This document shows positions 6,073 through 63,738 of a DNA stretch of 64,000 nucleotides, one piece after another. Every line of letters starts with the position of its first letter. Within the stretch, counting starts at the first letter, position 1. The DNA is taken from contig PSLZ01000005.1 in assembly GCA_040289885.1 (NCBI GenBank), positions 26,598-90,597 on the forward strand, written 5' to 3'. The position numbers and the translations under genes are program-made. Under the pieces are notes generated by a model that made no database searches, was not told where the DNA came from, and saw only the letters and a program-made list of their open reading frames with translations. This DNA is from Armatimonadota bacterium. Its GTDB lineage: Bacteria > Armatimonadota > HRBIN16.

Positions 6073-6278
6073 CCGCCAAGGCTCCTTTCGTTACCCCTGT
6101 GTTGTGCCACCTTGTAAGATTCTTGCCCAACGAACGTTTGTCCTCTAGCTATCGCCCTGCATTATACCATTGACGCCGTCCCCCTTGCCATACCCTTAGT
6201 ACTTGCAATCAGTCTATGCTTCCTCTAAAATAGAGGACAGGGCAATGAAAGCGCCACCATAGTCTAAGGGTGATTGGA

Positions 6279-8306
6279 ATGTGGGTAACTTGGCGGTCCC
6301 TGTTTGCGGTACGAGCTCCCGCTATACCGCGAACGCAAGTAACAGAACGCGAAGCTATCGAGGAAGCGGCTCGCGAGCGGGGCGTTACTCTGCGCTCGGT
6401 ATTGATTGGCACACTGCTGATCCCAGTGAATACCTATTGGATCATTCAGGTGGAGGGTATCTGGCACCGCAACCACGCGACCGCCATGTCCCTCTTTTGG
6501 AACACGGTCTTCTGCCTGATGCTTCTGATCCTGCTCAATGTGCTCGTGTTGAAGCGACTCGCCCCGCGACTCGCCTTCACGCAGGGCGAACTGATAGTCA
6601 TCTACGTAATGATTACCATAGCCTCCGCGCTCGCTGGACACGACACCTTGCAGTTGGGGATCCCTGCGCTATCCATGCCCTTCTACGGCGCGAACGCCAC
6701 CAACGGCTGGGACCAGTTGTTCAATCACTATTTCCCAAAGTGGCTGACGGTGCAGGACAAGGAGTTCCTCCGCCCCTACTACGAGGGGCACAGCTCCCTC
6801 TATATCGCGGGACGCATCTACGTCTGGCTCAAGCCGGTGCTCATCTGGAGCCTGTTCATCGGCGTGATGGGCGTGGTCATGGTGTGCCTGAATGTGATCC
6901 TGCGCAAGCAGTGGATGGAGAACGAAAAGCTCTCCTACCCTATCGTCCAGCTCCCCATGACGATGACCGCCAACGGAGGCAATACCAGCTTCTTCCTGCA
7001 GAAGCCGCTGATTCTGGGTGCCCTGCTGGGTGGTTCGCTGGACGTGCTGAACGGATTACACGTGCTGTTCCCTGCTATCCCTCAAATCGTGGTGAGACAC
7101 GACGACCCCTCGCGCAACCTTCAGCAATACTTCACCACCCCTCCGTGGAACGGTGTCGGGTGGTTCCCGCTTCCGCTGTATCCCTTCATCATCGCACTGG
7201 GCTACTTTCTGCCCGTAGACCTGTCCTTTTCCATCTGGTTCTTCTTCCTGCTGAAGATGGCTCTGCGCGTGGTGGCAACGGCACTCGGCGTGGAGCAGGG
7301 ACAACCGTACACCTTCCCCTTCTTCAACGAGCAGTCGTACGGAGCCTGGTTCGCCATTGTGGCGTTTGCGCTGTGGGGAGCACGCAACCACATCCGCGAG
7401 GTCTGGCGCAAGGCAGTTAACCCACGTTACGCCGGCATAGACGACTCGCGGGAGGCGCTGTCTTACCGCGGCGCGGTCGTCGGCTTGCTGTTGGGCACGG
7501 CTTTGCTCGTTGCGTTCTGTGTATCCGCGGGAATGAAACTGTGGGTCACGGTGCTATTCTTCCTGATATGCTTCATCATATCGATCGGTATTACCCGCGT
7601 CCGGGCAGAGCTAGGTCCCCCGGCACACGAAGTAGTCGGGATGAATGCGCAGACCTTCCTCATTATGGCGTTCGGCTCCACGGCTATCGGCGCCCCCAGC
7701 CTGACCATGTTCACCATGTTCTGGTGGTTCAGCGGACGTGGCTACCGAACCCACCCCATGCCCTGCCAGCTGGAGGCGATGAAGATGGCACAGCAAGGTC
7801 GTATCAACATGAAAGGCATGGGCTGGGTGATGGTGTTCGCCATGTTCTTTGGCGGACTGGCTTCCTACTGGGCGGCACTGCACCTGAAATACGCCAACAC
7901 CACCGGCGTAGATTACATGGACATGCACAACTGGGGCAACTACTACTGGCTGGAAAGCATCCTGCGGTCGCCTAGGCAACCGAGCGTCACCGGGATGCTC
8001 GCCGTGGTGTTCGGTTTCGCCGCTGCGTCGCTGATGCACCTTGCAAGGCTACGCTTCCTGTGGTGGCCCTTCCATCCGGCAGGTTATGCCCTGTCGCTGA
8101 ACTTTGGGGTGGAATACTTCTGGTCGTGCCTACTGATTGCCAGCGTCATCAAGTGGCTGGTTCTGCGCTATGGCGGCTACAAGCTGAACCGGCAGATGAT
8201 GCCTTTCATGTTCGGGGTGATCCTGGGCGAGTACTGCGTCGGGGCGTTCTGGAGCGCGATGAGCGTCATCCTAAACACGCGCATGTACGACTTCTGCCCC
8301 GGCTAA
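6279..8306 (+). CDS. large polytopic membrane protein of unknown function (possibly DUF6784/DUF6785-type)
   Basis: ~675 aa, many hydrophobic helices, protein-like composition; probable start ATG 6279 (MWVTWRSL) after AAGGGTGA; ORF track begins at GTG 6270. Confidence 0.5.
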   Translation: MWVTWRSLFAVRAPAIPRTQVTEREAIEEAARERGVTLRSVLIGTLLIPVNTYWIIQVEGIWHRNHATAMSLFWNTVFCLMLLILLNVLVLKRLAPRLAFTQGELIVIYVMITIASALAGHDTLQLGIPALSMPFYGANATNGWDQLFNHYFPKWLTVQDKEFLRPYYEGHSSLYIAGRIYVWLKPVLIWSLFIGVMGVVMVCLNVILRKQWMENEKLSYPIVQLPMTMTANGGNTSFFLQKPLILGALLGGSLDVLNGLHVLFPAIPQIVVRHDDPSRNLQQYFTTPPWNGVGWFPLPLYPFIIALGYFLPVDLSFSIWFFFLLKMALRVVATALGVEQGQPYTFPFFNEQSYGAWFAIVAFALWGARNHIREVWRKAVNPRYAGIDDSREALSYRGAVVGLLLGTALLVAFCVSAGMKLWVTVLFFLICFIISIGITRVRAELGPPAHEVVGMNAQTFLIMAFGSTAIGAPSLTMFTMFWWFSGRGYRTHPMPCQLEAMKMAQQGRINMKGMGWVMVFAMFFGGLASYWAALHLKYANTTGVDYMDMHNWGNYYWLESILRSPRQPSVTGMLAVVFGFAAASLMHLARLRFLWWPFHPAGYALSLNFGVEYFWSCLLIASVIKWLVLRYGGYKLNRQMMPFMFGVILGEYCVGAFWSAMSVILNTRMYDFCPG

Positions 8307-13084: not shown

Positions 13085-15070
13085 ATGCAGAAATCCAGTT
13101 CCGAACCCAGATGGCAAACAGCAACCGCCAAAGCCTTTCATCTGCACGAATGGACGTTCAGCCTCCAGCCATCGGGCAACCCCTTCTCCCCCGCTGACAA
13201 CGACATCACCGCGGAGATTCGCCTGCCAACAGGGGAGACGATACGTCAGCCCGCCTTCTGGGATGGCGATAACACGTGGAAGGTACGGTTGGCTCTGCTT
13301 CGCTCCGGTCGTATCCATTGGAGACTGCTAAAGAACGGCTCCCCGCTGTCGGTGTCGGCGTGGGTGGAAGTGAAACCGATATCGTCACAAGCGACATTGG
13401 GCTTCGTTCGCCGGCACCCTCGCCTCAAGCAGTTTACCACCGACGCCGGCAAAACCTTCTATCCGATCGGGCAGAACGTCGGGTGGAGAACGCCGAGCAC
13501 CGACTACCCCCTCTTCTTCGAGCAGATGTCACAAGCGGGCATGAACTGGGCGCGGATATGGCTGTGCCATTGGGACGGTAAGAACCCGGACTGGGTCATG
13601 AGCAAGCGGATGGAACCCGGCTGGCTGGATATGGAGGTCATTCGTCGCCTCGAGAAGATCGTGCACCTCGCGGAAAGGTTCGGTATTTATATCCAGCTCA
13701 CCCTCCAGCATCACGGACAATACTCCACCCGCACCAACCCGAACTGGGCAGAGAACCCCTGGAACAAGCAGCACGGAGGCTTTCTCGACACCCCCGAACA
13801 GTTCTTCACCCATCCTCGCGCCCTGGAGCTCACGCGCCACAAGTACCGCTACCTCGTTGCGCGATGGGGATACTCCCCGCATCTCATGGCATGGGAACTC
13901 TTTAATGAGGTGGAGTGGACCGATGCTGCTGCCAACGGTAAATGGGATGTTATCGCCCAGTGGCACCGCGAGATGGCACGCTTCCTCCGCTCAATAGACG
14001 TGCATCAACATCTGATAACCACCAGCTCTGCCATGGATGTTCCCAGCCTGTGGGTGGAGATGGACTACTACCAGCCCCATTATTACGTGCCGGATATCGC
14101 GGGCACGCTGTTCGAAATGACACCTGCGCGGAGGAATAAACCCATCTTCATCGGCGAGTGGGGTGGTGCGAACCCGCGACAGTGGGGCGATGAAGCCTTC
14201 CTTCGACAGGGACTGTGGGTCGGCGTGATGCGCGGACTGGCGGGAGGGGCGCAGTGGTGGTCCTGGGAAACCACCGAAGCACGCAAGTGGTACGCCCAGT
14301 GGGCATCCCTATCGCAGTTCTTGAAGATGGCGGGCTTTGTTTCCGGGAATCTCTGGCAGCCCATCTCCGCACAGGTGATGTCGAAGGCACGTGCGCCGTT
14401 CCGCTTCTCGCCGGGGGGCGGATGGGAAAGCACACAGCGGTACCGCTTCATCGTGCCAACCGATGGCTCCGCTATCGAGGGATTATCGCTCCTCTCGCGG
14501 TTCATACAGGGCGAGTCGCACCGCGACATGTGTCGGGAGCCTGTGGTGTTCGAAGTGGAGTTCGCACAGGCTGGAAGATGCACGCTACATATCGGCACGG
14601 TTGCCCGTAGCGGCGCTGGCATTATTGTCAGGCTGGACAACGAGATAGTCGCCCAGGAACGGTTCTCCTCCGCACAACGGGATACCTTCGTGAACCGTGA
14701 GATCACCTTCCCTGTGCCAGCAGGCAAGCATACGATTTCCGTCTGCAACCCAGGACCCGACTGGTTTACACTGGACAGCGTGACGCTGACGCCCTACGCA
14801 CCGCCAAACAAGGTCGCCGTTTGTGGAGATGGACAAAACGCCATGTGGTATCTGTGGCGCGAGCAACCGGTGGACGCGTCGGTCACGTTGAAGATACCGA
14901 GTACTCCACCGGGAAGATATAAGGTTACGTGGTGGAACCCTTCCACTGGCAGAGCGATACACACCGAGACCGTAGCGGTGGCACAAGGAGGATTAGCGCT
15001 GAAGGTTCCCGTGCACGAGCGGGACATCGCCGGCTGTTTGAGCCCTGCGGGGCGCCGAGCCAGCCTGTAA
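13085..15070 (+). CDS. glycoside hydrolase family 5 protein (DUF5060-like N-terminus + GH5 catalytic domain)
   Basis: 661 aa; GH5 catalytic acid/base motif WELFNEVE; RBS GAGGAA; 3' end overlaps the rnpB 3' end by ~20 nt. Confidence 0.75.
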   Translation: MQKSSSEPRWQTATAKAFHLHEWTFSLQPSGNPFSPADNDITAEIRLPTGETIRQPAFWDGDNTWKVRLALLRSGRIHWRLLKNGSPLSVSAWVEVKPISSQATLGFVRRHPRLKQFTTDAGKTFYPIGQNVGWRTPSTDYPLFFEQMSQAGMNWARIWLCHWDGKNPDWVMSKRMEPGWLDMEVIRRLEKIVHLAERFGIYIQLTLQHHGQYSTRTNPNWAENPWNKQHGGFLDTPEQFFTHPRALELTRHKYRYLVARWGYSPHLMAWELFNEVEWTDAAANGKWDVIAQWHREMARFLRSIDVHQHLITTSSAMDVPSLWVEMDYYQPHYYVPDIAGTLFEMTPARRNKPIFIGEWGGANPRQWGDEAFLRQGLWVGVMRGLAGGAQWWSWETTEARKWYAQWASLSQFLKMAGFVSGNLWQPISAQVMSKARAPFRFSPGGGWESTQRYRFIVPTDGSAIEGLSLLSRFIQGESHRDMCREPVVFEVEFAQAGRCTLHIGTVARSGAGIIVRLDNEIVAQERFSSAQRDTFVNREITFPVPAGKHTISVCNPGPDWFTLDSVTLTPYAPPNKVAVCGDGQNAMWYLWREQPVDASVTLKIPSTPPGRYKVTWWNPSTGRAIHTETVAVAQGGLALKVPVHERDIAGCLSPAGRRASL

Positions 15071-15430
15071 GCGGGGTTCTGTGCCCTGCCTGTAAAGGGC
15101 AGGCGGCGGCTATCTCTCTGGGGTGCCGGTTACCCGGCACCTCTAGCGGCTGTACCCGGAGGCTCAGCGGGCCACCTCACGGCCTCCCTATTCAGCCTTG
15201 CTCCCGATGGGGTTTGCCCTGCCAGCGGCATCACTGCCGCTGCGGTGCGCTCTTACCGCGCCTTTTCACCCTTGCCCGCATTCAGCAAACGCTGAACCGC
15301 TGGCGGTGTGTTTTCTGTGGCACTTTCCGTAGGGTCGCCCCTCCCGGACGCTATCCGGCATCGTGCCCTGCGGAGCCCCGACTTTCCTCCCCACCCAAAC
15401 GGGCGAGGCAGCCGCCCGGCTGGCTCGGTG
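15050..15430 (-). ncRNA. rnpB: RNase P RNA, bacterial type A
   Basis: Minus strand reads GAGCCAGCC...GGGAGGAAAGUCGGGGCUCCGCAGGGCACGAUGCCGGAUAGCGUCCGGG...AGAAAACACACCGCC...GGCAAGGGUGAAAAGGCGCGGUAAGAGCGCACCGCAGCGG...GGGCACAGAACCCCGCUUACAGGCUGGCUC, matching universal P4/P10-12/P15/P18 core blocks of E. coli M1 RNA; P1 helix GAGCCAGCC/GGCUGGCUC; -10 TATAAT at 15440-15445 (minus). Confidence 0.9.
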
Positions 15431-20082: not shown

Positions 20083-20218
20083 TGATTATTTTTGTCATTA
20101 TGCTGTTTATCGTCGTTCTGACTCACTTCTTCCCGTCATTCCGAGCTTCTCTCTTGTCATTCTGAGCGAAGCGAAGAATCTCAACCGAGATGCAGAACTA
20201 CGTTCATCATGACAAAAA
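20083..20218. repeat. MITE/REP-like element, copy A: degenerate GTCATTCYGAGC direct repeats, full unit tgtcattctgagcgaagcgaagaatctcaaccgagatgc, terminal inverted repeats atttttgtcat / atgacaaaaa
   Basis: AT-richer island in a high-GC intergenic region; 39-nt core shared almost exactly with loci at 28924, 31996 (reverse) and 63691 (reverse, partial). Confidence 0.7.
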
Positions 20219-28816: not shown

Positions 28817-28923
28817 GCCTCTCCCCGTTGCGCTTTTTTGTCCACCGCATAGGACAACCCTGCTCATCGCAATCCTACCGCCGCCATCCGAAGCGCCAGG
28901 GGCTACCACTCTAAGCCCCCTCT

Positions 28924-29022
28924 TGTCATTCTGAGCGAAGCGAAGAATCCCAACCGAGATGCTTCGCTGGCGCTCAGCATGACAACAACGACGTCATTCG
29001 GAGCCGCGAGGCGAAGAAGCCC
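28924..29022. repeat. MITE/REP-like element, copy B: tgtcattctgagcgaagcgaagaatcccaaccgagatgcttcgctggcgctcagcatgaca hairpin unit plus partial unit gtcattcggagccgcgaggcgaagaagccc
   Basis: Palindromic arms TGTCAT..CTGAGC..GAAGC / GCTTC..CTCAG..ATGACA; intergenic between mqnP start and next gene. Confidence 0.7.
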
Positions 29023-30057: not shown

Positions 30058-30091
30058 TGCGCGCACCGCAGGGGTTTGGTTGTCACTTACG
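30058..30091. terminator. strong GC palindrome terminator (13-bp stem)
   Basis: cccctgcggtgcg|cgcaccgcagggg followed by TTTGGTTG; between convergent genes. Confidence 0.7.
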
Positions 30092-30836
30092 AGCGCTTGC
30101 GGCGAAGCAGGAACACCGCCGGCATGCCCGACAGGAACAGCATCCACGTCGAGGCGTCGGGGACGTTGGCGACGTAGACCACCATGTCCTGATAGTCGCG
30201 GTCAGCCCACGGCTGTCCGGTCGTCGGATGCCGGAACGGCGTGTCCTCTGCCCCAATGTAGTAGGCTTTCAACCCTGGCACAAGTGGCGGTGCTTCGAAG
30301 AACGCGAAGTGCTGGTCACTTGTTTGTCCAGGAGCATTCAGGTGGGACTCCGTGTACCAGGTGCCGCGGGGGTTCTCCAAATAGAACCCGAAGTCGGTGC
30401 TGCCAAGCGTCACAAGTGGGTTGAATATGATACTAGCACCGGGACCAGCACTGCCGTCGAACAGCTGTAGCCTGGTACTAGGATCACCCTTCTTGTAGAC
30501 ACCGAATTTGTTCGAACTGGCAAGTCCTGCAAGCTCGATCTTGATCGCCGCCCAGTCCGAACCCGGCGAGGTGAAGTACACTTCAGGGTCTGCACTTCCA
30601 CCTTCGCCTACCCAGGTTCGGCCAGGGAAGTATGGAGGCGCTCCCTGTGGTCCGATCTCCTTGCCAATGTTACCGTGTCCGGGATCCGAGCTCGGGTTGT
30701 CCCAGTACTCCCCCGAGTTGTCGGCTACCCAGTCTTGCCAGCTATAGGCCGCTTGCCCCTGCAGGGTCAACGCCCAGGCGCCCTGCACCGCCAGCGCCAA
30801 ATCGACCACCAATGCGAGTAGCACGAACCGTTTCAT
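30087..30836 (-). CDS. secreted PEP-CTERM sorting-domain protein
   Basis: Signal peptide MKRFVLLALVVDLALAVQGAWA; C-terminus VPDASTWMLFLSGMPAVFLLRRKRS (PEP-like motif + TM + basic tail); RBS GAAGGAGGAG. Confidence 0.75.
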   Translation of the reverse strand: MKRFVLLALVVDLALAVQGAWALTLQGQAAYSWQDWVADNSGEYWDNPSSDPGHGNIGKEIGPQGAPPYFPGRTWVGEGGSADPEVYFTSPGSDWAAIKIELAGLASSNKFGVYKKGDPSTRLQLFDGSAGPGASIIFNPLVTLGSTDFGFYLENPRGTWYTESHLNAPGQTSDQHFAFFEAPPLVPGLKAYYIGAEDTPFRHPTTGQPWADRDYQDMVVYVANVPDASTWMLFLSGMPAVFLLRRKRS

Positions 30837-30895: not shown

Positions 30896-30966
30896 CCTAT
30901 ATATATGCAAGAATCGTACCAAAACGGGGGTTTTGGGGCTTTTCGGGCAAAAATTTTTTTGAATTC
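30896..30966 (-). promoter_or_regulatory. sigma-54 promoter module (minus strand): AAAAATTTTT tract ... AAAACCCCCGTTTTGGTACGATTCTTGCATATATATAGG (-24 TGGTAC, -12 TTGCA)
   Basis: TGGYAC-N5-TTGCA core at 30906-30921 (reverse complement), ~58 nt upstream of the PEP-CTERM gene; same ~70-bp module recurs at 34921 and 59741. Confidence 0.6.
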
Positions 30967-31053
30967 TTTTCGCGTCCCATGCGATTCGAGGGCAACCCTA
31001 CCGATAATGAACAAAAATGTGTTATAATCATACTGTTACGAGGGCAAACATCC

Positions 31054-31950: not shown

Positions 31951-32125
31951 GTCATGCCGAGAAGCGTCGCCGTGATCATGCTGAGCATCAGCGAAGCATC
32001 TCGGTTGGGGTTCTTCGCTCCGCTCAGAATGACAGAGAGAGACTCACAATGACAAGAAGAGATGGCGCAGAATGATAGGGAAAAAGCAGTGCAGAATGAC
32101 GGGGAAACGAATGACAGAACGAGAA
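31951..32125. repeat. MITE/REP-like element, copy C (reverse orientation) followed by 5 degenerate ~20-bp tandem repeats of CAGAATGAC
   Basis: gcatctcggttggggttcttcgctccgctcagaatgaca (reverse complement of the GTCATTCTGAGC core), then cagaatgacagagagagact / cacaatgacaagaagag / cagaatgataggg / cagaatgacgggg / cgaatgacagaacg. Confidence 0.7.
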
Positions 32126-34747: not shown

Positions 34748-34920
34748 GGCTCACCGCCCTCCGGTTGAGTGTTTATCTCCTATTTATCATAGGGGAAAGC
34801 GATTCCTGCTGTCAAGCCGCCGTAGCTTTCCACCCTCAGATTGAATGAGACACCGACCAAGTTACTTCGCCAAACAATGTAGCCGTAGCGTCGAAACCCA
34901 TAATGCCCACAGGACGCCCA

Positions 34921-34995
34921 AAAAAATCTCACAATTTTTTGCGTCAAAAAGAGGAAAAACCCCGTTTTTGGTACGAATCTTGCAGTATATATACG
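34921..34995 (+). promoter_or_regulatory. sigma-54 promoter module (plus strand): CACAATTTTTT...AAAAACCCCGTTTTTGGTACGAATCTTGCAGTATATATAC
   Basis: -24 TGGTAC 34969-34974, -12 TTGCA 34980-34984; ~65 nt upstream of the PEP-CTERM/C-type lectin gene. Confidence 0.6.
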
Positions 34996-35048
34996 GCGGG
35001 AAGACACGACACGATGAATCCCTATATGGGATGAAAGGAGGTACGACT

Positions 35049-35615
35049 GTGTTGTTCAGCGTCTATCGTCGGATAGGGCTGATAGCTGGCTTGAGCCTGC
35101 TTTTCGTACATGCGGCGCACAGCTACACCCTGCTTAACTCGACCGTCTGGTCGGTCAATGGACACCTCTACCAGGTCTATGGCGGTTCCAGCACTTGGGA
35201 CGACGCCGCAGCCTTCGCCAGCACGGTGCAGGTGCCAGGATTCTACAATGGCTACCTGGCGACTGTGCATAGCGACGCGGAAAATACCGTCATCACCAAC
35301 CTGCTGACCCTGCCCGCCTGGTTGGGAGGCTACCAACCCCCAGGCGAGCTCAACCCGAATGCCAACTGGCGATGGGTGTCGGGCGAACCGTGGACCTACA
35401 CGAACTGGTACCCCGGCCAGCCGGACGACCATCTCGGTCCCGGTAGCGAGCCGTACCTGGTTATCTACACGAACGGAATGTGGCATGACTACCCGGGAGG
35501 TACTGCCACTCGCCCATCGTTCGTGGTAGAGCTGAACCCGGTTCCCGACCCAGCGAGTATTCTCGGACTAGGCATGGGTGTAGCAGGTCTGTTCCTGCGC
35601 CGCCGCAAACGCTAA
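35049..35615 (+). CDS. secreted C-type lectin-like domain protein with PEP-CTERM anchor
   Basis: RBS AAGGAGGT 6 nt before GTG 35049; signal peptide; WLGGY...NWRWVSGEPWTYTNWYPGQPDD...YLVIYTNGMWHD (CTLD-like); C-terminus PVPDPASILGLGMGVAGLFLRRRKR. Confidence 0.75.
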   Translation: MLFSVYRRIGLIAGLSLLFVHAAHSYTLLNSTVWSVNGHLYQVYGGSSTWDDAAAFASTVQVPGFYNGYLATVHSDAENTVITNLLTLPAWLGGYQPPGELNPNANWRWVSGEPWTYTNWYPGQPDDHLGPGSEPYLVIYTNGMWHDYPGGTATRPSFVVELNPVPDPASILGLGMGVAGLFLRRRKR

Positions 35616-35693: not shown

Positions 35694-35727
35694 AAACGGC
35701 AGGTGTTAACCTGCCGTTCTGCCTTTG
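35694..35727 (+). terminator. rho-independent terminator
   Basis: aacggcagg-tgttaa-cctgccgtt followed by ctgcctttgg. Confidence 0.6.
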
Positions 35728-35781: not shown

Positions 35782-35810
35782 TTGAAAGTTCTTGCAACCC
35801 GTAGTATACT
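35782..35810 (+). promoter_or_regulatory. sigma-70 type promoter (-35 TTGAAA, 17-bp spacer, -10 TATACT)
   Basis: Canonical spacing; ~190 nt upstream of the tetR-family gene. Confidence 0.45.
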
Positions 35811-40981: not shown

Positions 40982-41068
40982 GGAGAGGTGGCCGAGTGGT
41001 TGAAGGCACCGGTCTTGAAAACCGGCAGGCGATGAGCCTCGTGGGTTCGAATCCCACCCTCTCCGCCA
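40982..41068 (+). tRNA. tRNA-Ser (anticodon UGA), long variable arm, CCA encoded
   Basis: Acceptor ggagagg/cctctcc; D-arm gccgagtggttgaaggc; anticodon loop cuUGAaa; T-arm gtgggttcgaatcccac; discriminator G + CCA. Confidence 0.9.
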
Positions 41069-42560: not shown

Positions 42561-43244
42561 TCAAAACGCTTGCAGGGGATTGAACTGGCTAGCGCTCCAC
42601 GGGCTCTGTACCGCCAGTCTGATCCACCGCACGTGACCATCTGCAAACACCACGTTATTGCCGTCGTTGTGGCGCGGACACTGCCACCGCGGACGCTCCC
42701 GATACGCCGATTCCCAGTTCGGGTGCCGCTCGGCAAGCTGACCGGGAAGCACATACATCATGTAACTGCCCATGGCGCCGTTCAGGTTGTTTGCATCCGC
42801 CCGGTTGTTGGGCGTGTCATACGCCAGAAACGAGTTCGACGGCACTGTAATCCTGTCCAATGCCATTCCGCTGGTTCCATAAGCCGTGCCCATCAGGCGC
42901 GGAAACCCCAAAAACGTGTTGTATGCATAACTGGGCACCGGCAATGTGTTCTCCGGGCATACCCAGATTCGCGCATCCTTCACGTACGGCTGTAACGCTA
43001 CCATCCATGCGCGCCCCTCAGGAGCAACCACCGCGTAGGGAAACGCCGCGGGCAGGTTGCCTTCCCAGTCCTGGGCGTAGAGCGCAAATGCCTGCCCAAT
43101 CTGGCGCAGGTTGCTAACGCATGCGCTACTGCGTGCCACCGCGCGGGCGCGCCCAAATACCGGCATCAAAACGGACGACAGGATCGCCACCACGGCGATG
43201 ACGACGAGCAGTTCAACCATCGTAAAGGCTTTTCGCGTTCTCAT
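42561..43244 (-). CDS. prepilin-type N-terminal cleavage/methylation domain protein, DUF1559 family (second copy)
   Basis: MRTRKAFTMVELLVVIAVVAILSSVLMPVF...NVVFADGHVRWI; ATG 43244 with GAGGAG 8 nt upstream. Confidence 0.8.
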   Translation of the reverse strand: MRTRKAFTMVELLVVIAVVAILSSVLMPVFGRARAVARSSACVSNLRQIGQAFALYAQDWEGNLPAAFPYAVVAPEGRAWMVALQPYVKDARIWVCPENTLPVPSYAYNTFLGFPRLMGTAYGTSGMALDRITVPSNSFLAYDTPNNRADANNLNGAMGSYMMYVLPGQLAERHPNWESAYRERPRWQCPRHNDGNNVVFADGHVRWIRLAVQSPWSASQFNPLQAF

Positions 43245-43450
43245 GACACTCACTCCTCATGTTCAAAATAGTCTTCGCTGTGCAGGGCACCGCTCCTTGT
43301 GGTAGCCTCTTTTTTGCCCAGCACCCTTATTACTAGCAAGAAGCGTGCCACAGCGGTGATAAAATTACCAGATTTTGCCCCAAACGGCGGGAAATTTCCA
43401 CCCGTTTCCCGAAAACATTACCAGCAAAAACGAACGCGGAGAGTGCCAAC

Positions 43451-48974: not shown

Positions 48975-50057
48975 CTACCGTCTTCGTCGACGCAGCGCCA
49001 GCAATGCCACACCGCCTAGCAACACCAGCCCCGATGCAGGCTCCGGCACCGGCTGTGCCAGAATCACGCTCCAGTAGCGCACCCCGCCGATGTCTTCGCG
49101 GGTCACCCACACCAGCTCGCCCCGGTCGTTCAGCGCGACACGGAAACTGCGCGTGGTGCCGCTGTTGTCGGTCAGCGCAATCAACGTGCCATCGGCAAGC
49201 AGATGCACATCGTACTTCCGAAACAGAATCGCCTGCTCGTATGCTACCCAGCCTCGGTTGTTGATGTCGGGCGAGGAGCTGAGGGCGTTGCCGGTGTTGT
49301 TCGTCAGCGCAACCACCCCCGTCGCCTCCGACCACTGCTCGATGTTCCAGTTACTGCCGTTGTGGTGCATCCACACCACCTGCCCGTTGTCGTTGAGGTC
49401 GGGCGAGGCGTAGTCGTCGCCGACGGTGTTCTGGCTGAGGTTGCGGTAGTTGCGCATGTCATCCGCATGAGCGAGGTAGATCTGCGCATTCGCCCTGCTG
49501 TCCACCGCATTCCATGCTATCTCGCCTCGGTTATTGATGCGAGGGGTCTGGCTGTCGAAGCCCGCCCAGCTGGTCAGGTTCACCGGGTCGCTGTCGCCGG
49601 GCTTCCACAGGTAGATGTCCTGATAGCCTGTTGTCAGGTTCGTTCCCGTTGTCACCACCCAGCCCGAGTCGTTGATGTCCGGCGCACCAAAGCCTACCGA
49701 GCCGTCAGTATGCGTGATGTTGGTAATGATACCGCTATCCCACAATACCACATCCGATACGGAGCCGTCGTCGTAGCGCCAGACGATCTGATTGTGGTTG
49801 TTGATGCGGGGATAGGTGTTCAGGCGTCCCTGCTCGCCCGCACTGAGCCGTCGCACCTGCGAACCATCGTACAACCACACGTCCGAGCGCATAAAATCGC
49901 CCTCGCCCCACACGATCCAGCCGTTGTTGTTGATGTGCACCGACTGAACCGAGTTGGTATGGCGGTAGATGACCCGCGTGCGGAACACCGACTGGGAATG
50001 TGCCCGCAGGCTCGCCAGCAGTAACCCCGCGATCGCAATACCGTACAGGACACGCAT
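48975..50057 (-). CDS. secreted repeat (beta-propeller-like, ~7 x P-INN-G-IVW units) protein with PEP-CTERM anchor
   Basis: RBS AGGAGG 7 nt before ATG 50057; signal peptide MRVLYGIAIAGLLLASLRAHSQS; C-terminus PVPEPASGLVLLGGVALLALRRRRR; repeats INNNGWIVW / INNHNQIVW / INNRGEIAW / LNDNGQVVW. Confidence 0.8.
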   Translation of the reverse strand: MRVLYGIAIAGLLLASLRAHSQSVFRTRVIYRHTNSVQSVHINNNGWIVWGEGDFMRSDVWLYDGSQVRRLSAGEQGRLNTYPRINNHNQIVWRYDDGSVSDVVLWDSGIITNITHTDGSVGFGAPDINDSGWVVTTGTNLTTGYQDIYLWKPGDSDPVNLTSWAGFDSQTPRINNRGEIAWNAVDSRANAQIYLAHADDMRNYRNLSQNTVGDDYASPDLNDNGQVVWMHHNGSNWNIEQWSEATGVVALTNNTGNALSSSPDINNRGWVAYEQAILFRKYDVHLLADGTLIALTDNSGTTRSFRVALNDRGELVWVTREDIGGVRYWSVILAQPVPEPASGLVLLGGVALLALRRRRR

Positions 50058-59740: not shown

Positions 59741-59812
59741 CAAATTTGCACCAATTTTTCCTCTCGGAGGCGCAAAATCCCCGTTTTTGGCACGATTCTT
59801 GTGTATAGGAGA
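59741..59812 (+). promoter_or_regulatory. sigma-54 promoter module (plus strand): ...CACCAATTTTTCC...AAAATCCCCGTTTTTGGCACGATTCTTGTGTATAGG
   Basis: -24 TGGCAC 59788-59793, -12 TTGTG 59799-59803; ~60 nt upstream of a secreted-protein gene; third copy of the module. Confidence 0.55.
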
Positions 59813-59862: not shown

Positions 59863-60315
59863 ATGAACAAACATCTCGCTTTGTGGAGCCTGGCTGTGGC
59901 TGTTCTGCTCATGGCAGTGCCCGCGCTCGCACAGACATGGGTGCCTGTGGGAACAGCCGAAGGCGGTATCGCGGTGTATTTTAACGACACCAACGAGGTA
60001 CCCACGAACGTTTCGTACATCCGGGTGCAGTACGCCAACTCCACCACCAACGTGAACGGGGCTTCTATCAGCATGTTGGAACCGTTTAAGACCATCTTTG
60101 GTGACTTGGGGCAGTACGGGTTTGACGGTATCGCCCTTGCGCCCACGAACACGAACCCGCACGCTCTTCAGCGTGGGGCTGTTGCCGATTGGAACGTGGC
60201 TTCGTCGTCGGAAGGCGTAATAAAGAAAAGACGCGATAGCGGTATGGCTCACAGCCCGGCACATAGCCTGCCGGGCTGTGTGGTATACAGCCTCTGGCAG
60301 GATATGTTATCATAA
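59863..60315 (+). CDS. secreted hypothetical protein (sigma-54 module upstream; no PEP-CTERM tail as read)
   Basis: RBS GGAGG 8 nt before ATG 59863; signal peptide [25 protein letters not shown]; a perfect hairpin cagcccggca-N7-tgccgggctg lies inside the last 60 nt of the ORF. Confidence 0.6.
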
Positions 60316-63690: not shown

Positions 63691-63738
63691 GGGATTCTTC
63701 GCTGCGCTCAGAATGACACCAAACGTCATGCCGAAAGC
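63691..63738. repeat. MITE/REP-like element, copy D (partial, reverse orientation)
   Basis: gggattcttcgctgcgctcagaatgaca + cgtcatgccgaaagc; intergenic. Confidence 0.6.

What the first reader, a model, noticed from the sequence alone, without database searches (positions are those of the whole stretch)
34921..35615. C-type lectin-like domain protein with a PEP-CTERM anchor under the sigma-54 module
35049..35615 encodes a ~190-aa secreted CTLD-like protein (WLGGY / WRWVSGEPW / NWYPGQPDD / YLVIYTNGMWHD) ending in PVPDPAS-TM-RRRKR. Bacterial CTLD proteins fused to exosortase sorting signals are poorly characterised. A carbohydrate-binding surface protein under sigma-54 control suggests a regulated adhesion or EPS-associated function. 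The ORF track over-extends the start; the real start is GTG 35049 after AAGGAGGT.
Basis: partly seen in the sequence, partly recalled or inferred. Interest (0 to 1): 0.55.

Follow-up and report, generated by a model that had tools for sequence, protein, structure and literature searches.

The report
Secreted lectin-fold protein, PEP-CTERM tail
A small secreted protein of an uncultured hot-spring-type bacterium (Armatimonadota) joins a sugar-binding (C-type lectin) fold to a known cell-surface sorting tail, and is read from a tightly switched (sigma-54 type) promoter shared with other proteins carrying the same tail; it is real, but an ordinary member of known kinds.

Summary
GTG 35049..35615 (+), preceded by AAGGAGGT, encodes a 188-aa protein with a signal peptide, a C-type lectin-like domain and a PEP-CTERM tail. 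Pfam Lectin_C, Pfam PEP-CTERM and TIGR02595 all score above their curated cut-offs. AlphaFold2 (core pLDDT >90) plus Foldseek put CEL-I, CD23, SP-D and MBP on top (E about 1e-9). The domain has no cysteines. It keeps QPD and a Glu, but has WHD where lectins have WND, so sugar binding is plausible and unproven.

The only promoter-like site upstream is a −24/−12 element, TGGTACGAATCTTGCA (34969-34984). It is invariant in five orthologous loci whose further-upstream DNA and gene order differ. The same roughly 80-nt module (phased A/T box, AAAACCCCGTTT, −24/−12, TATATA) recurs in the window and in metagenome contigs. Of nine gene families it drives, five pass PEP-CTERM cut-offs and a sixth has a variant tail. 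This mirrors what Haft et al. 2006 found, in Proteobacteria only.

No exosortase, rpoN or enhancer-binding protein gene was found in the roughly 84 kb readable around the gene, so those parts stay inferred. Orthologues are already annotated this way in NCBI, and lectin-plus-PEP-CTERM proteins recur in several phyla. Verdict: new member of a known kind, modest interest.

The parts
34920..34951 (+). A/T-rich box with phased A-tracts: AAAAAAATCTCACAATTTTTTGCGTCAAAAAG. The consensus across related promoters is about AAAATTTTCGAAAATTTTT. It is either a candidate intrinsic bend or a binding site for a dimeric regulator.
   Evidence: It is conserved at fixed distance from the −24 GG in 18 non-identical promoter instances, and it lies outside the pattern used to find them. 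It is conserved in orthologous loci while DNA further upstream is not.
34952..34999 (+). Sigma-54-type core promoter: GGAAAAACCCCGTTTT-TGGTACGAATCTTGCA-GTATATATAC. The GG is at 34970-34971 and the GC at 34982-34983. The inferred transcription start is near 34995.
   Evidence: Exact match to TGGYACN5TTGCW. The 29-nt extended match has 0 expected by chance. It is invariant in 5 orthologous loci. It is absent from 33 loci of other phyla. No sigma-70-type site lies on this strand upstream of the gene.
35035..35042 (+). Shine-Dalgarno sequence AAGGAGGT, 6 nt before the GTG start.
   Evidence: Read directly from the sequence. Invariant in the orthologue alignment.
35049..35615 (+). Coding sequence of 188 aa plus the TAA stop.
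   Evidence: There are eleven close relatives at 65-87% identity (ten full-length or nearly so, one a 114-aa partial call); those that carry a source name are Armatimonadota or Chthonomonadetes MAGs.
35049..35117 (+). Signal peptide, about aa 1-23: MLFSVYRRIGLIAGLSLLFVHAA. It has RR in the n-region, a hydrophobic core and a VHA/A cleavage-like site.
   Evidence: Inspection of the sequence. AF2 models it as a single helix, residues 2-22. Conserved in orthologues. No signal-peptide predictor was run.
35127..35534 (+). C-type lectin-like domain, about aa 27-162. It contains no cysteine. The putative Ca2+/sugar site is Q124-P125-D126 (35418-35426), E134 (35448-35450) and W145-H146-D147 (35481-35489).
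   Evidence: Pfam PF00059 is above its gathering score. AF2 pLDDT is 87-97 over residues 31-160. Foldseek top hits are CEL-I, CD23, SP-D and MBP, with E from 1.7e-9 and target TM-scores of 0.76-0.84 for the best-fitting CEL-I and CD23 chains. The profile search against PDB sequences gives CD23 at E 3e-17. P125, W145 and D147 are invariant and E134 nearly so.
35538..35612 (+). PEP-CTERM sorting signal, aa 164-188: P-VPDPAS, a hydrophobic helix ILGLGMGVAGLFL, then RRRKR.
   Evidence: PF07589 scores 24.7 bits against 20.7. TIGR02595 scores 21.8 against 16. The tail is almost invariant in orthologues.
35695..35718 (+). Terminator-like hairpin with a 10-bp stem (AACGGCAGGT/ACCTGCCGTT), 80 nt after the stop. 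It is followed only by CTGCCTTTGG, so the U-tract is weak.
   Evidence: The hairpin is kept in the centroid RNA fold. The simple terminator scan did not call it because there is no T-run.
30906..30970 (-). Second copy of the same promoter module. It drives the PEP-CTERM-like gene 30087-30836 (−), whose tail is VPDAS-TM-RRKRS.
   Evidence: inverted repeat I2. Orthologous pairs are seen in L009, L053, L058, L062 and L067. The tail is below the PF07589 and TIGR02595 thresholds, with only weak hits to PEP-CTERM subfamily tails.
59742..59801 (+). Third copy of the module. It drives a 150-aa secreted protein (59863-60315) that has no PEP-CTERM tail.
   Evidence: Direct repeat D2. Sequence read. No family hit.

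Best explanation
The locus is a single-gene unit. It encodes a small exported C-type lectin-fold protein that is a substrate of the PEP-CTERM/exosortase sorting pathway. It is transcribed from an enhancer-dependent sigma-54 promoter belonging to a lineage-wide PEP-CTERM promoter module.

Shown here:
- The gene, its GTG start and its ribosome-binding site.
- The CTLD fold.
- The PEP-CTERM tail.
- A −24/−12 element conserved in orthologues.
- The same module in front of other PEP-CTERM genes.

Inferred mechanism:
1. The protein crosses the inner membrane by Sec, using its signal peptide.
2. It is held there by the C-terminal helix and the RRRKR stop-transfer cluster.
3. An exosortase encoded elsewhere in the genome cuts at VPDPAS. 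The lectin domain is then released or attached to the cell surface or exopolysaccharide layer.
4. There the QPD / Glu / WHD site binds a glycan, either the cell's own matrix or a neighbour's. This would contribute to aggregation, adhesion or matrix organisation.
5. Expression is off unless an ATP-dependent activator opens the sigma-54 closed complex. The phased A/T box at about −35 to −70 supplies either the DNA bend or the activator's binding site.
6. The lectin is therefore made together with the other PEP-CTERM proteins in response to one signal.
For: Gene and start.

CTLD: 24.6 bits against 22.6; mean pLDDT 84, core >90; CEL-I, CD23, SP-D and MBP on top; profile E down to 3e-17 for single CTLDs. 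P125, W145 and D147 are invariant and E134 nearly so. Residue 124 is Q or E in all but one member, residue 126 is N or D in all but one, and residue 146 is N or H throughout.

PEP-CTERM. The tail is nearly invariant in orthologues. Two more PEP-CTERM-type genes lie in the same 64 kb.

Promoter:
- Exact consensus match.
- Extended module with 0 expected by chance.
- Invariant in orthologues although the upstream neighbour differs. That neighbour is an ABC ATPase here and a DUF6785 gene in L007, L048 and L060, where the protein was scanned or read, and by its size and position also in L004 and L009.
- No sigma-70-type site on that strand upstream of the gene.
- No match in 33 loci of other phyla.

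Regulon: the metagenome scan and downstream-ORF census found 18 non-identical class-A modules. All point at a nearby ORF. They cover nine gene families.
- Five families pass the PF07589 or TIGR02595 cut-offs.
- A sixth has a VPDAS/IPDAS variant tail.
- The other three are a TPR protein, a 150-aa secreted protein, and a secreted protein cut off by the contig end.

Precedent: sigma-54 motifs in front of single-gene PEP-CTERM operons (Haft 2006, PMC1569441), and an experimentally RpoN-dependent pepA (PMC9850573).
Against: - No exosortase, rpoN or sigma-54 activator gene lies in the window or the 10 kb beyond each end, about 84 kb in all.
- No GAFTGA or RpoN-box ORF occurs in 914 kb of fetched loci. 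The genome as a whole could not be searched.
- No conserved enhancer site further than about 75 nt upstream is visible. That is unusually close for a classical activator.
- The lectin site has His in place of the Ca2+-ligand Asn of WND in this clade. The orthologues read QPN, not QPD. Ca2+ dependence and sugar specificity therefore cannot be predicted.
- The canonical CTLD disulfides are absent.
- A third PEP-CTERM gene in the window (48975-50054) lacks the module. The regulon therefore does not cover all PEP-CTERM proteins.
Confidence: 0.65

Rival explanations
1. The CTLD here is a non-lectin binding module. It would bind protein, mineral or another surface, as type II antifreeze proteins, lithostathine or snake-venom CTLDs do. 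The protein would still be an exported PEP-CTERM protein but would not bind carbohydrate.
For: WND is replaced by WHD in the whole Armatimonadota clade, and the EPN/QPD position reads QPN in most orthologues. A calcium-independent type II antifreeze protein is among the close structural matches (rank 20). No disulfides are present.
Against: The other site positions are conserved or conservatively substituted across phyla: Q/E at 124 in all but one member, invariant P125, N/D at 126 in all but one, E134 nearly invariant and D147 invariant. That pattern is typical of sugar-binding CTLDs rather than the degenerate sites of non-lectin CTLDs. The best structural match is a QPD-type GalNAc lectin, CEL-I.
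Confidence: 0.25
2. The conserved upstream module is not a sigma-54 promoter. It would be the promoter or operator of another sigma factor, for example an ECF or housekeeping sigma using the conserved TATATA as a −10, with the A/T palindrome as a repressor or activator site.
For: TATATA directly after the GC element is conserved in most copies. No rpoN or activator gene was found in the DNA available. In L056, L063 and L070 a perfect TTGACA-17-TACAAT promoter also sits in the leader. In L068 the module precedes an ECF-like sigma gene.
Against: The most conserved bases are exactly those of the sigma-54 consensus: TGG-ACG and TTGC, with GG-N10-GC spacing. There is no acceptable −35 at 16-18 nt from TATATA (0-2 of 6 matches on reading the sequence), and the sigma-70 scan finds none. 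A pilin-like gene in the window also has a textbook TGGCACGCTTCTTGCT, a classic sigma-54 target. There is precedent for PEP-CTERM genes.
Confidence: 0.15
3. The C-terminal tail acts only as a membrane anchor. There would be no exosortase processing in this lineage, so the lectin domain stays tethered to the outer face of the cytoplasmic membrane.
For: No exosortase gene was found in about 84 kb around the gene or in any fetched locus.
Against: Unrelated proteins in the same lineage carry the same P-[ED]-P / helix / Arg-rich tail, scoring above the curated cut-offs. The VPDPAS motif itself is invariant or conservatively substituted (VPDPTS, VPEPAT) in the close orthologues. A plain anchor would not need that. 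In the 2006 survey, exosortase co-occurred with PEP-CTERM in every genome.
Confidence: 0.12
4. The CTLD is the variable protein of a diversity-generating retroelement.
For: CTLD folds are the usual DGR targets. This is general knowledge, and one search lists one such paper.
Against: No repeat of any part of the gene (template repeat) and no reverse transcriptase lie in the window. Orthologues differ by ordinary scattered substitutions, not adenine-directed hypervariation at the C-terminal end of the domain.
Confidence: 0.02

Closest known systems
Animal Ca2+-dependent C-type lectin carbohydrate-recognition domains (CEL-I, CD23, SP-D, MBP-A; Pfam PF00059)
   Same: It has the same fold and length. 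It shares the WIGL-type core (WLGGY) and WxW…GEPW, a QPD tripeptide followed by a conserved Glu, and a W-x-D motif at the spacing seen in CEL-I and MBP.
   Different: It has no cysteines, so none of the canonical disulfides. It has His where the Ca2+/sugar-ligand Asn of WND sits. It is bacterial, monomeric in design, and carries a prokaryotic sorting tail.
PEP-CTERM/exosortase (EpsH, XrtA) protein-sorting system, Haft et al. 2006; PepA flocculation proteins
   Same: It has an N-terminal signal peptide, a C-terminal PEP-like motif with a helix and an Arg cluster above the TIGR02595 and PF07589 cut-offs, and a single-gene unit with a long upstream region carrying a −24/−12 element about 65 nt before the start. 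All of this is as described for proteobacterial PEP-CTERM genes.
   Different: The phylum is Armatimonadota, whereas the 2006 paper found the sigma-54 motif only in Proteobacteria. The upstream motif is a phased A/T box about 20 nt from the −24 element, not the 17-nt motif ending TTTACA about 63 nt upstream. PrsK, PrsR, PrsT and the exosortase were not found in the DNA available. The passenger is a recognisable lectin domain rather than a low-complexity Ser/Thr/Asn-rich protein.
Other prokaryotic CTLD proteins with sorting signals (metagenomic and PVC-group proteins)
   Same: Relatives at 30-40% identity occur in Planctomycetota, Verrucomicrobiota and other phyla, and several also end in PEP-CTERM. 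Among the best 150 cluster representatives, five match a simple PEP-CTERM-tail pattern and a sixth looks like one by eye. Others end in sequences that look like T9SS- or dockerin-type C-termini; those were not tested against family models.
   Different: This clade is single-domain, very small (186-188 aa), has WHD, and is tied to the Armatimonadota sigma-54 module.

Membership tests
C-type lectin-like domain (Pfam PF00059 / CTLD fold) | Sequence match to the family model above the curated threshold | tested here: met
   24.6 bits against a gathering score of 22.6, residues 66-149. A profile of 20 homologues hits single-CTLD PDB chains at E 3e-17 to 1e-11.
C-type lectin-like domain (Pfam PF00059 / CTLD fold) | CTLD fold: two helices, two sheets and a long-loop region | tested here: met
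   The AF2 model has pLDDT 87-97 over residues 31-160. Foldseek gives 274 PDB hits at E<=1e-3, and all 50 listed are CTLDs, with target TM-scores of 0.76-0.84 for the best-fitting CEL-I and CD23 chains.
C-type lectin-like domain (Pfam PF00059 / CTLD fold) | Conserved disulfide pairs of canonical CTLDs | tested here: not met
   The 188-aa protein contains no Cys. The ten aligned close relatives have none inside the domain, and the more distant homologues have no conserved Cys there. Many bacterial hits have 0-0.5% Cys.
Ca2+-dependent carbohydrate-binding C-type lectins (EPN/QPD + WND site) | EPN/QPD tripeptide, downstream Glu, and the Asn-Asp of WND forming Ca2+ site 2 | tested here: inconclusive
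   Q124-P125-D126, E134 and D147 are present. P125 and D147 are invariant and E134 nearly so. N is replaced by H146 in this clade, and orthologues read QPN. Binding was not tested.
PEP-CTERM exosortase substrates (TIGR02595 / PF07589) | C-terminal PEP motif, hydrophobic helix and basic cluster scoring above the curated cut-offs, at the extreme C-terminus | tested here: met
   PF07589 scores 24.7 against 20.7. TIGR02595 scores 21.8 against 16. The match covers residues 164-188 of 188.
PEP-CTERM exosortase substrates (TIGR02595 / PF07589) | N-terminal signal peptide | tested here: met
   An RR n-region, a 12-residue hydrophobic core and a VHA/A site, conserved in orthologues. This rests on inspection and the AF2 helix 2-22 only. 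No dedicated predictor was available.
PEP-CTERM exosortase substrates (TIGR02595 / PF07589) | Exosortase (EpsH/Xrt) encoded in the same genome | not testable with these tools
   None lies in the window or within 10 kb of either end, or among the multi-TM ORFs of the fetched loci.
Sigma-54-dependent promoters | −24 GG / −12 GC elements with consensus TGGCACG-N4-TTGCW at a suitable distance from the gene | tested here: met
   TGGTACGAATCTTGCA at 34969-34984, 64 nt before the GTG. Invariant in orthologues. No competing sigma-70-type site on that strand.
Sigma-54-dependent promoters | rpoN and an enhancer-binding AAA+ activator in the genome; an upstream activator site | not testable with these tools
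   No RpoN-box or GAFTGA ORF occurs in the window or in the 914 kb of fetched DNA, window included. Only the A/T box at about −35 to −70 is conserved upstream.
PrsK/PrsR/PrsT PEP-CTERM regulon (Haft 2006) | 17-nt motif 1 ending TTTACA, 32-92 nt upstream of the sigma-54 motif, plus prsK, prsR and prsT genes | tested here: inconclusive
   There is no TTTACA upstream of this gene. The consensus box is AAAATTTTCGAAAATTTTT, and only one orthologue reads AAATTTACA. The paper's logo is not available for comparison. The TPR protein driven by the module in L065 does not hit the PrsT model. The prsK and prsR genes could not be looked for genome-wide.

The most novel reading that the evidence does not exclude
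The roughly 80-nt module (phased A4T4-type box, AAAACCCCGTTT, −24/−12, TATATA) may mark an Armatimonadota-specific sigma-54 regulon of PEP-CTERM and other exported proteins. It would be a second, independently built counterpart of the proteobacterial PrsK/PrsR system. Intrinsic DNA curvature, or a close-in palindromic site, would replace the distant enhancer. The activator and the exosortase are still unidentified. A 10-TM DUF6785/DUF6784 gene repeatedly sits just upstream of module-driven PEP-CTERM genes and could be part of the system.
Probability: 0.4. Interest if true: 0.5.

Novelty: new member of a known kind. Interest (0 to 1): 0.3.

Why it matters
It gives a clean, small example of a bacterial C-type lectin fold: 140 residues and free of disulfides. 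Related MAGs come from hot-spring and subsurface samples, although the window's own source was not established. The sugar-site residues are recognisable, which makes the domain attractive for expression and glycan-array work.

It also shows that the link between sigma-54 and PEP-CTERM genes, described in 2006 as confined to Proteobacteria, exists in a distant phylum with its own cis-element. That supports the broader view that sigma-54 governs the cell exterior. It also gives a sequence handle for finding the cognate activator and the full surface-protein regulon in Armatimonadota. None of this overturns current understanding.

Tried and rejected
- **Exosortase, RpoN and activator genes.** Pfam scans covered about 38 window ORFs. 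Precomputed Pfam calls covered the window centre and the 10 kb beyond each end. A hydropathy screen picked multi-TM ORFs in all fetched loci, followed by Pfam and NCBIfam scans. A regex screen for GAFTGA, the RpoN box and CSG motifs covered 914 kb. Nothing was found.
- **DGR hypothesis.** No template repeat was found.
- **Known RNA elements in the leaders.** Rfam at gathering threshold on the window and five module loci found only RNase P RNA and one tRNA.
- **Literature.** I searched for Armatimonadota with exosortase, PEP-CTERM or sigma-54, and for C-type lectin with PEP-CTERM. Nothing specific turned up.
- **Class B hits.** Ten of the 26 metagenome hits to the promoter pattern belong to an unrelated repeated element with no clear downstream ORF. 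They were excluded from the census.
- **PrsT.** The TPR protein under the module in L065/L066 does not hit the PrsT model.

Full report
**1. The observation**

- The mechanical ORF 34845..35615 is over-long. The start that fits all the evidence is GTG 35049, 6 nt after AAGGAGGT (35035-35042).
- Gene callers on two ENA assemblies and one Logan assembly call exactly this 188-aa product.
- Nine orthologues begin at the equivalent Met-Leu. The two longer database entries merely run back through the Shine-Dalgarno codons.
- The GTG and the Shine-Dalgarno sequence are invariant in a DNA alignment of six loci.
- The product is MLFSVYRRIGLIAGLSLLFVHAA | HSYTLLNS…ELN | PVPDPAS ILGLGMGVAGLFL RRRKR.

**2. 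What the protein is**

Family scores are above the curated cut-offs:
- Pfam Lectin_C: 24.6 bits against 22.6.
- Pfam PEP-CTERM: 24.7 against 20.7.
- NCBIfam TIGR02595: 21.8 against 16.

The fold is a C-type lectin-like domain.
- An AlphaFold2 model built on 20 homologues has mean pLDDT 84, with 87-97 over residues 31-160.
- Foldseek against the PDB returns only C-type lectin-like domains in the list shown. The first are CEL-I, a QPD-type GalNAc lectin, then CD23, SP-D, MBP and MGL. E-values start at 1.7e-9, and target TM-scores are 0.76-0.84 for the best-fitting CEL-I and CD23 chains.
- A profile of the homologues hits single-CTLD PDB sequences at E 3e-17 and weaker.

Within the domain:
- W91, G93, W109, G112, E113, W120, P125, W145 and D147 are invariant, and E134 nearly so.
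- The Ca2+/sugar site of canonical lectins corresponds to Q124-P125-D126, E134 and H146-D147.
- Distant homologues have E/Q-P-N/D and WND. The Armatimonadota clade has QPN (QPD only in this window) and WHD.
- The protein has no cysteine, so the canonical disulfides are missing.

It is therefore a genuine CTLD with a largely preserved but modified sugar site. Lectin activity is plausible and not shown.

**3. Relatives**
- Eleven close relatives (65-87% identity; ten full-length or nearly so, one a 114-aa partial call) come from MAGs; those that carry a source name are Armatimonadota or Chthonomonadetes. NCBI already names some of them 'C-type lectin domain-containing protein', 'lectin-like protein' or 'PEP-CTERM sorting domain-containing protein'.
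- One genome-collection scan found close orthologues in six MAGs. These include 'Bacterium HR16' and a Chthonomonadia MAG. It also found relatives at 30-40% identity in Planctomycetota, Verrucomicrobiota and other phyla. Several of those also end in PEP-CTERM.
- An exhaustive HMM search finds 49,722 cluster representatives at E<=1e-3. Among the best 150, five match a simple PEP-CTERM-tail pattern and a sixth looks like one by eye. Others end in sequences that look like T9SS- or dockerin-type C-termini, which I did not test against family models.
- The fusion is therefore recurrent and known to the databases. I found no paper that studies one.

**4. The promoter**
- TGGTACGAATCTTGCA (34969-34984) matches TGGYACN5TTGCW exactly.
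- The loose pattern is only marginally enriched in the window (8 matches against 3.95 expected). The 29-nt extended sequence AAAACCCCnnTTTTGGTACGAnTCTTGCA occurs twice against 0 expected.
- In five orthologous loci the stretch from about −75 to the start codon is conserved, and the −24/−12 bases are invariant. DNA further upstream is unrelated, and even the upstream gene differs. That gene is a divergent ABC ATPase here. It is a DUF6785/DUF6784 membrane protein in L007, L048 and L060, where it was scanned or read, and by its size and position also in L004 and L009.
- The sigma-70 scan finds promoters for the two neighbouring genes (34815-34786 on the minus strand; 35782-35810 for the TetR gene). 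It finds none for this gene.
- The motif is absent from 33 fetched loci of other phyla.
- A 10-bp hairpin at 35695-35718 follows the gene. The unit is monocistronic.

**5. The module and its regulon**

In the window the same module precedes two other genes:
- 30087-30836 (−), a 249-aa secreted protein ending VPDAS-helix-RRKRS.
- 59863-60315 (+), a 150-aa secreted protein.

A consensus sigma-54 site without the extended module (TGGCACGCTTCTTGCT, 43335-43350, minus strand) precedes a pilin-like N_methyl/DUF1559 gene.

One metagenome scan with the 23-nt core gave 26 loci. Ten of them are an unrelated repeated element. The rest, together with the earlier loci, give 18 non-identical instances of the module. 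Conservation extends beyond the searched pattern:
- an A/T box, consensus about AAAATTTTCGAAAATTTTT, at fixed distance;
- further A-runs at roughly 10-11-nt phasing;
- TATATA-AG-nTGGAA after the −12 element.

All instances point at a nearby ORF. The nine downstream families are as follows:

| Downstream family | Loci | PEP-CTERM tail |
|---|---|---|
| This lectin | window, L001-L006, L009, L048, L060 | passes cut-offs |
| VPDAS/IPDAS family | window, L001, L002, L009, L053, L058, L062, L067 | variant tail, below cut-offs |
| 305-aa protein | L051 | passes cut-offs |
| about 240-aa family | L056, L063, L070 | passes cut-offs |
| about 205-aa protein with an internal stop | L059 | passes cut-offs |
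| ECF-like sigma gene followed by a 292-aa protein | L068 | the 292-aa protein passes cut-offs |
| TPR protein | L065, L066 | none |
| 150-aa secreted protein | window, L043, L044, L049 | none |
| Secreted protein cut off by the contig end | L046 | unknown |

This is the arrangement Haft et al. described for Proteobacteria. They found single-gene PEP-CTERM operons, long upstream regions, a sigma-54 motif about 71 nt before the start, and an upstream activator motif. They stated that only Proteobacteria shared it. RpoN dependence of one such gene has been shown experimentally. Here the upstream element is different and lies much closer. Its A4T4-type phasing suggests intrinsic curvature, and its TTTTCGAAAA core suggests a dimeric binding site. 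I could not distinguish between the two readings.

**6. What could not be shown**

No exosortase, rpoN or AAA+ activator gene lies in the window or within 10 kb of either end or in any fetched locus. Several distinct PEP-CTERM proteins with a conserved motif argue that a sortase exists, following the phylogenetic-profile argument. This is inference.

**7. Verdict**

The object is a new, well-defined member of two known kinds: the bacterial CTLD, and the PEP-CTERM substrate under sigma-54 control. The mildly new element is the Armatimonadota-specific promoter module. Interest is modest.

Noticed in passing
L004, L007:7795-9831, L009, L048, L060 and L070:3-1292; window 6270-8306: A 10-TM DUF6785/DUF6784 gene sits immediately upstream of module-driven PEP-CTERM genes of two different families: the lectin, and the 240-aa family in L070. 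The window's own DUF6785 gene is only a 26%-identical paralogue and is not next to a PEP-CTERM gene. A functional link to sorting is pure speculation.
   Followed up: partly
L045, L047, L050, L052, L054, L055, L057, L061, L064, L069: A different, highly conserved element of about 70 nt occurs in other metagenome organisms: TTGATCATCAAGCACTTAAGCCGCTGG…CCAGCGGGTTATCCCCGGTTTTGGCACGATTCTTGAATCC. It combines a hairpin with a sigma-54-like −24/−12 element and has no clear ORF downstream.
   Followed up: no
window 43335-43350 (−), upstream of 42561-43253 (−): A textbook sigma-54 site, TGGCACGCTTCTTGCT, lies 82 nt before a prepilin-type N_methyl/DUF1559 gene. This suggests pilin-like genes are also sigma-54 controlled in this organism.
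   Followed up: partly
window 20151-20193, 28920-28993, 31965-32034, 63691-63718: A REP-like intergenic repeat, TGTCATTCTGAGCGAAGCGAAGAATC…, is present in both orientations at four sites. One 70-nt inverted pair flanks the 28.9-32.0 kb segment that holds the VPDAS PEP-CTERM gene and a GT2 glycosyltransferase.
   Followed up: no
L056, L063 and L070, leaders of the 240-aa PEP-CTERM gene: These genes carry the sigma-54 module about 250 nt upstream. They also carry a perfect sigma-70 promoter (TTGACA-17-TACAAT) about 70 nt before the start, so they have dual promoters. L046 has two tandem −24/−12 elements 50 nt apart.
   Followed up: no
L068 and L065/L066: The module also drives an ECF-like sigma factor gene followed by a PEP-CTERM gene (L068), and a secreted TPR protein (L065/L066). 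The TPR protein is reminiscent of PrsT but does not hit the PrsT model.
   Followed up: partly
window 48975-50054 (−): A third PEP-CTERM protein (TIGR02595 19.3 bits; NxxGxxAF-repeat hit below its cut-off) lies directly after purD, with no sigma-54 module.
   Followed up: partly
window 15052-15427 (−) and 40982-41065 (+): RNase P RNA class A (293.7 bits) and one tRNA. The long ORFs overlapping them in the ORF list are spurious.
   Followed up: yes
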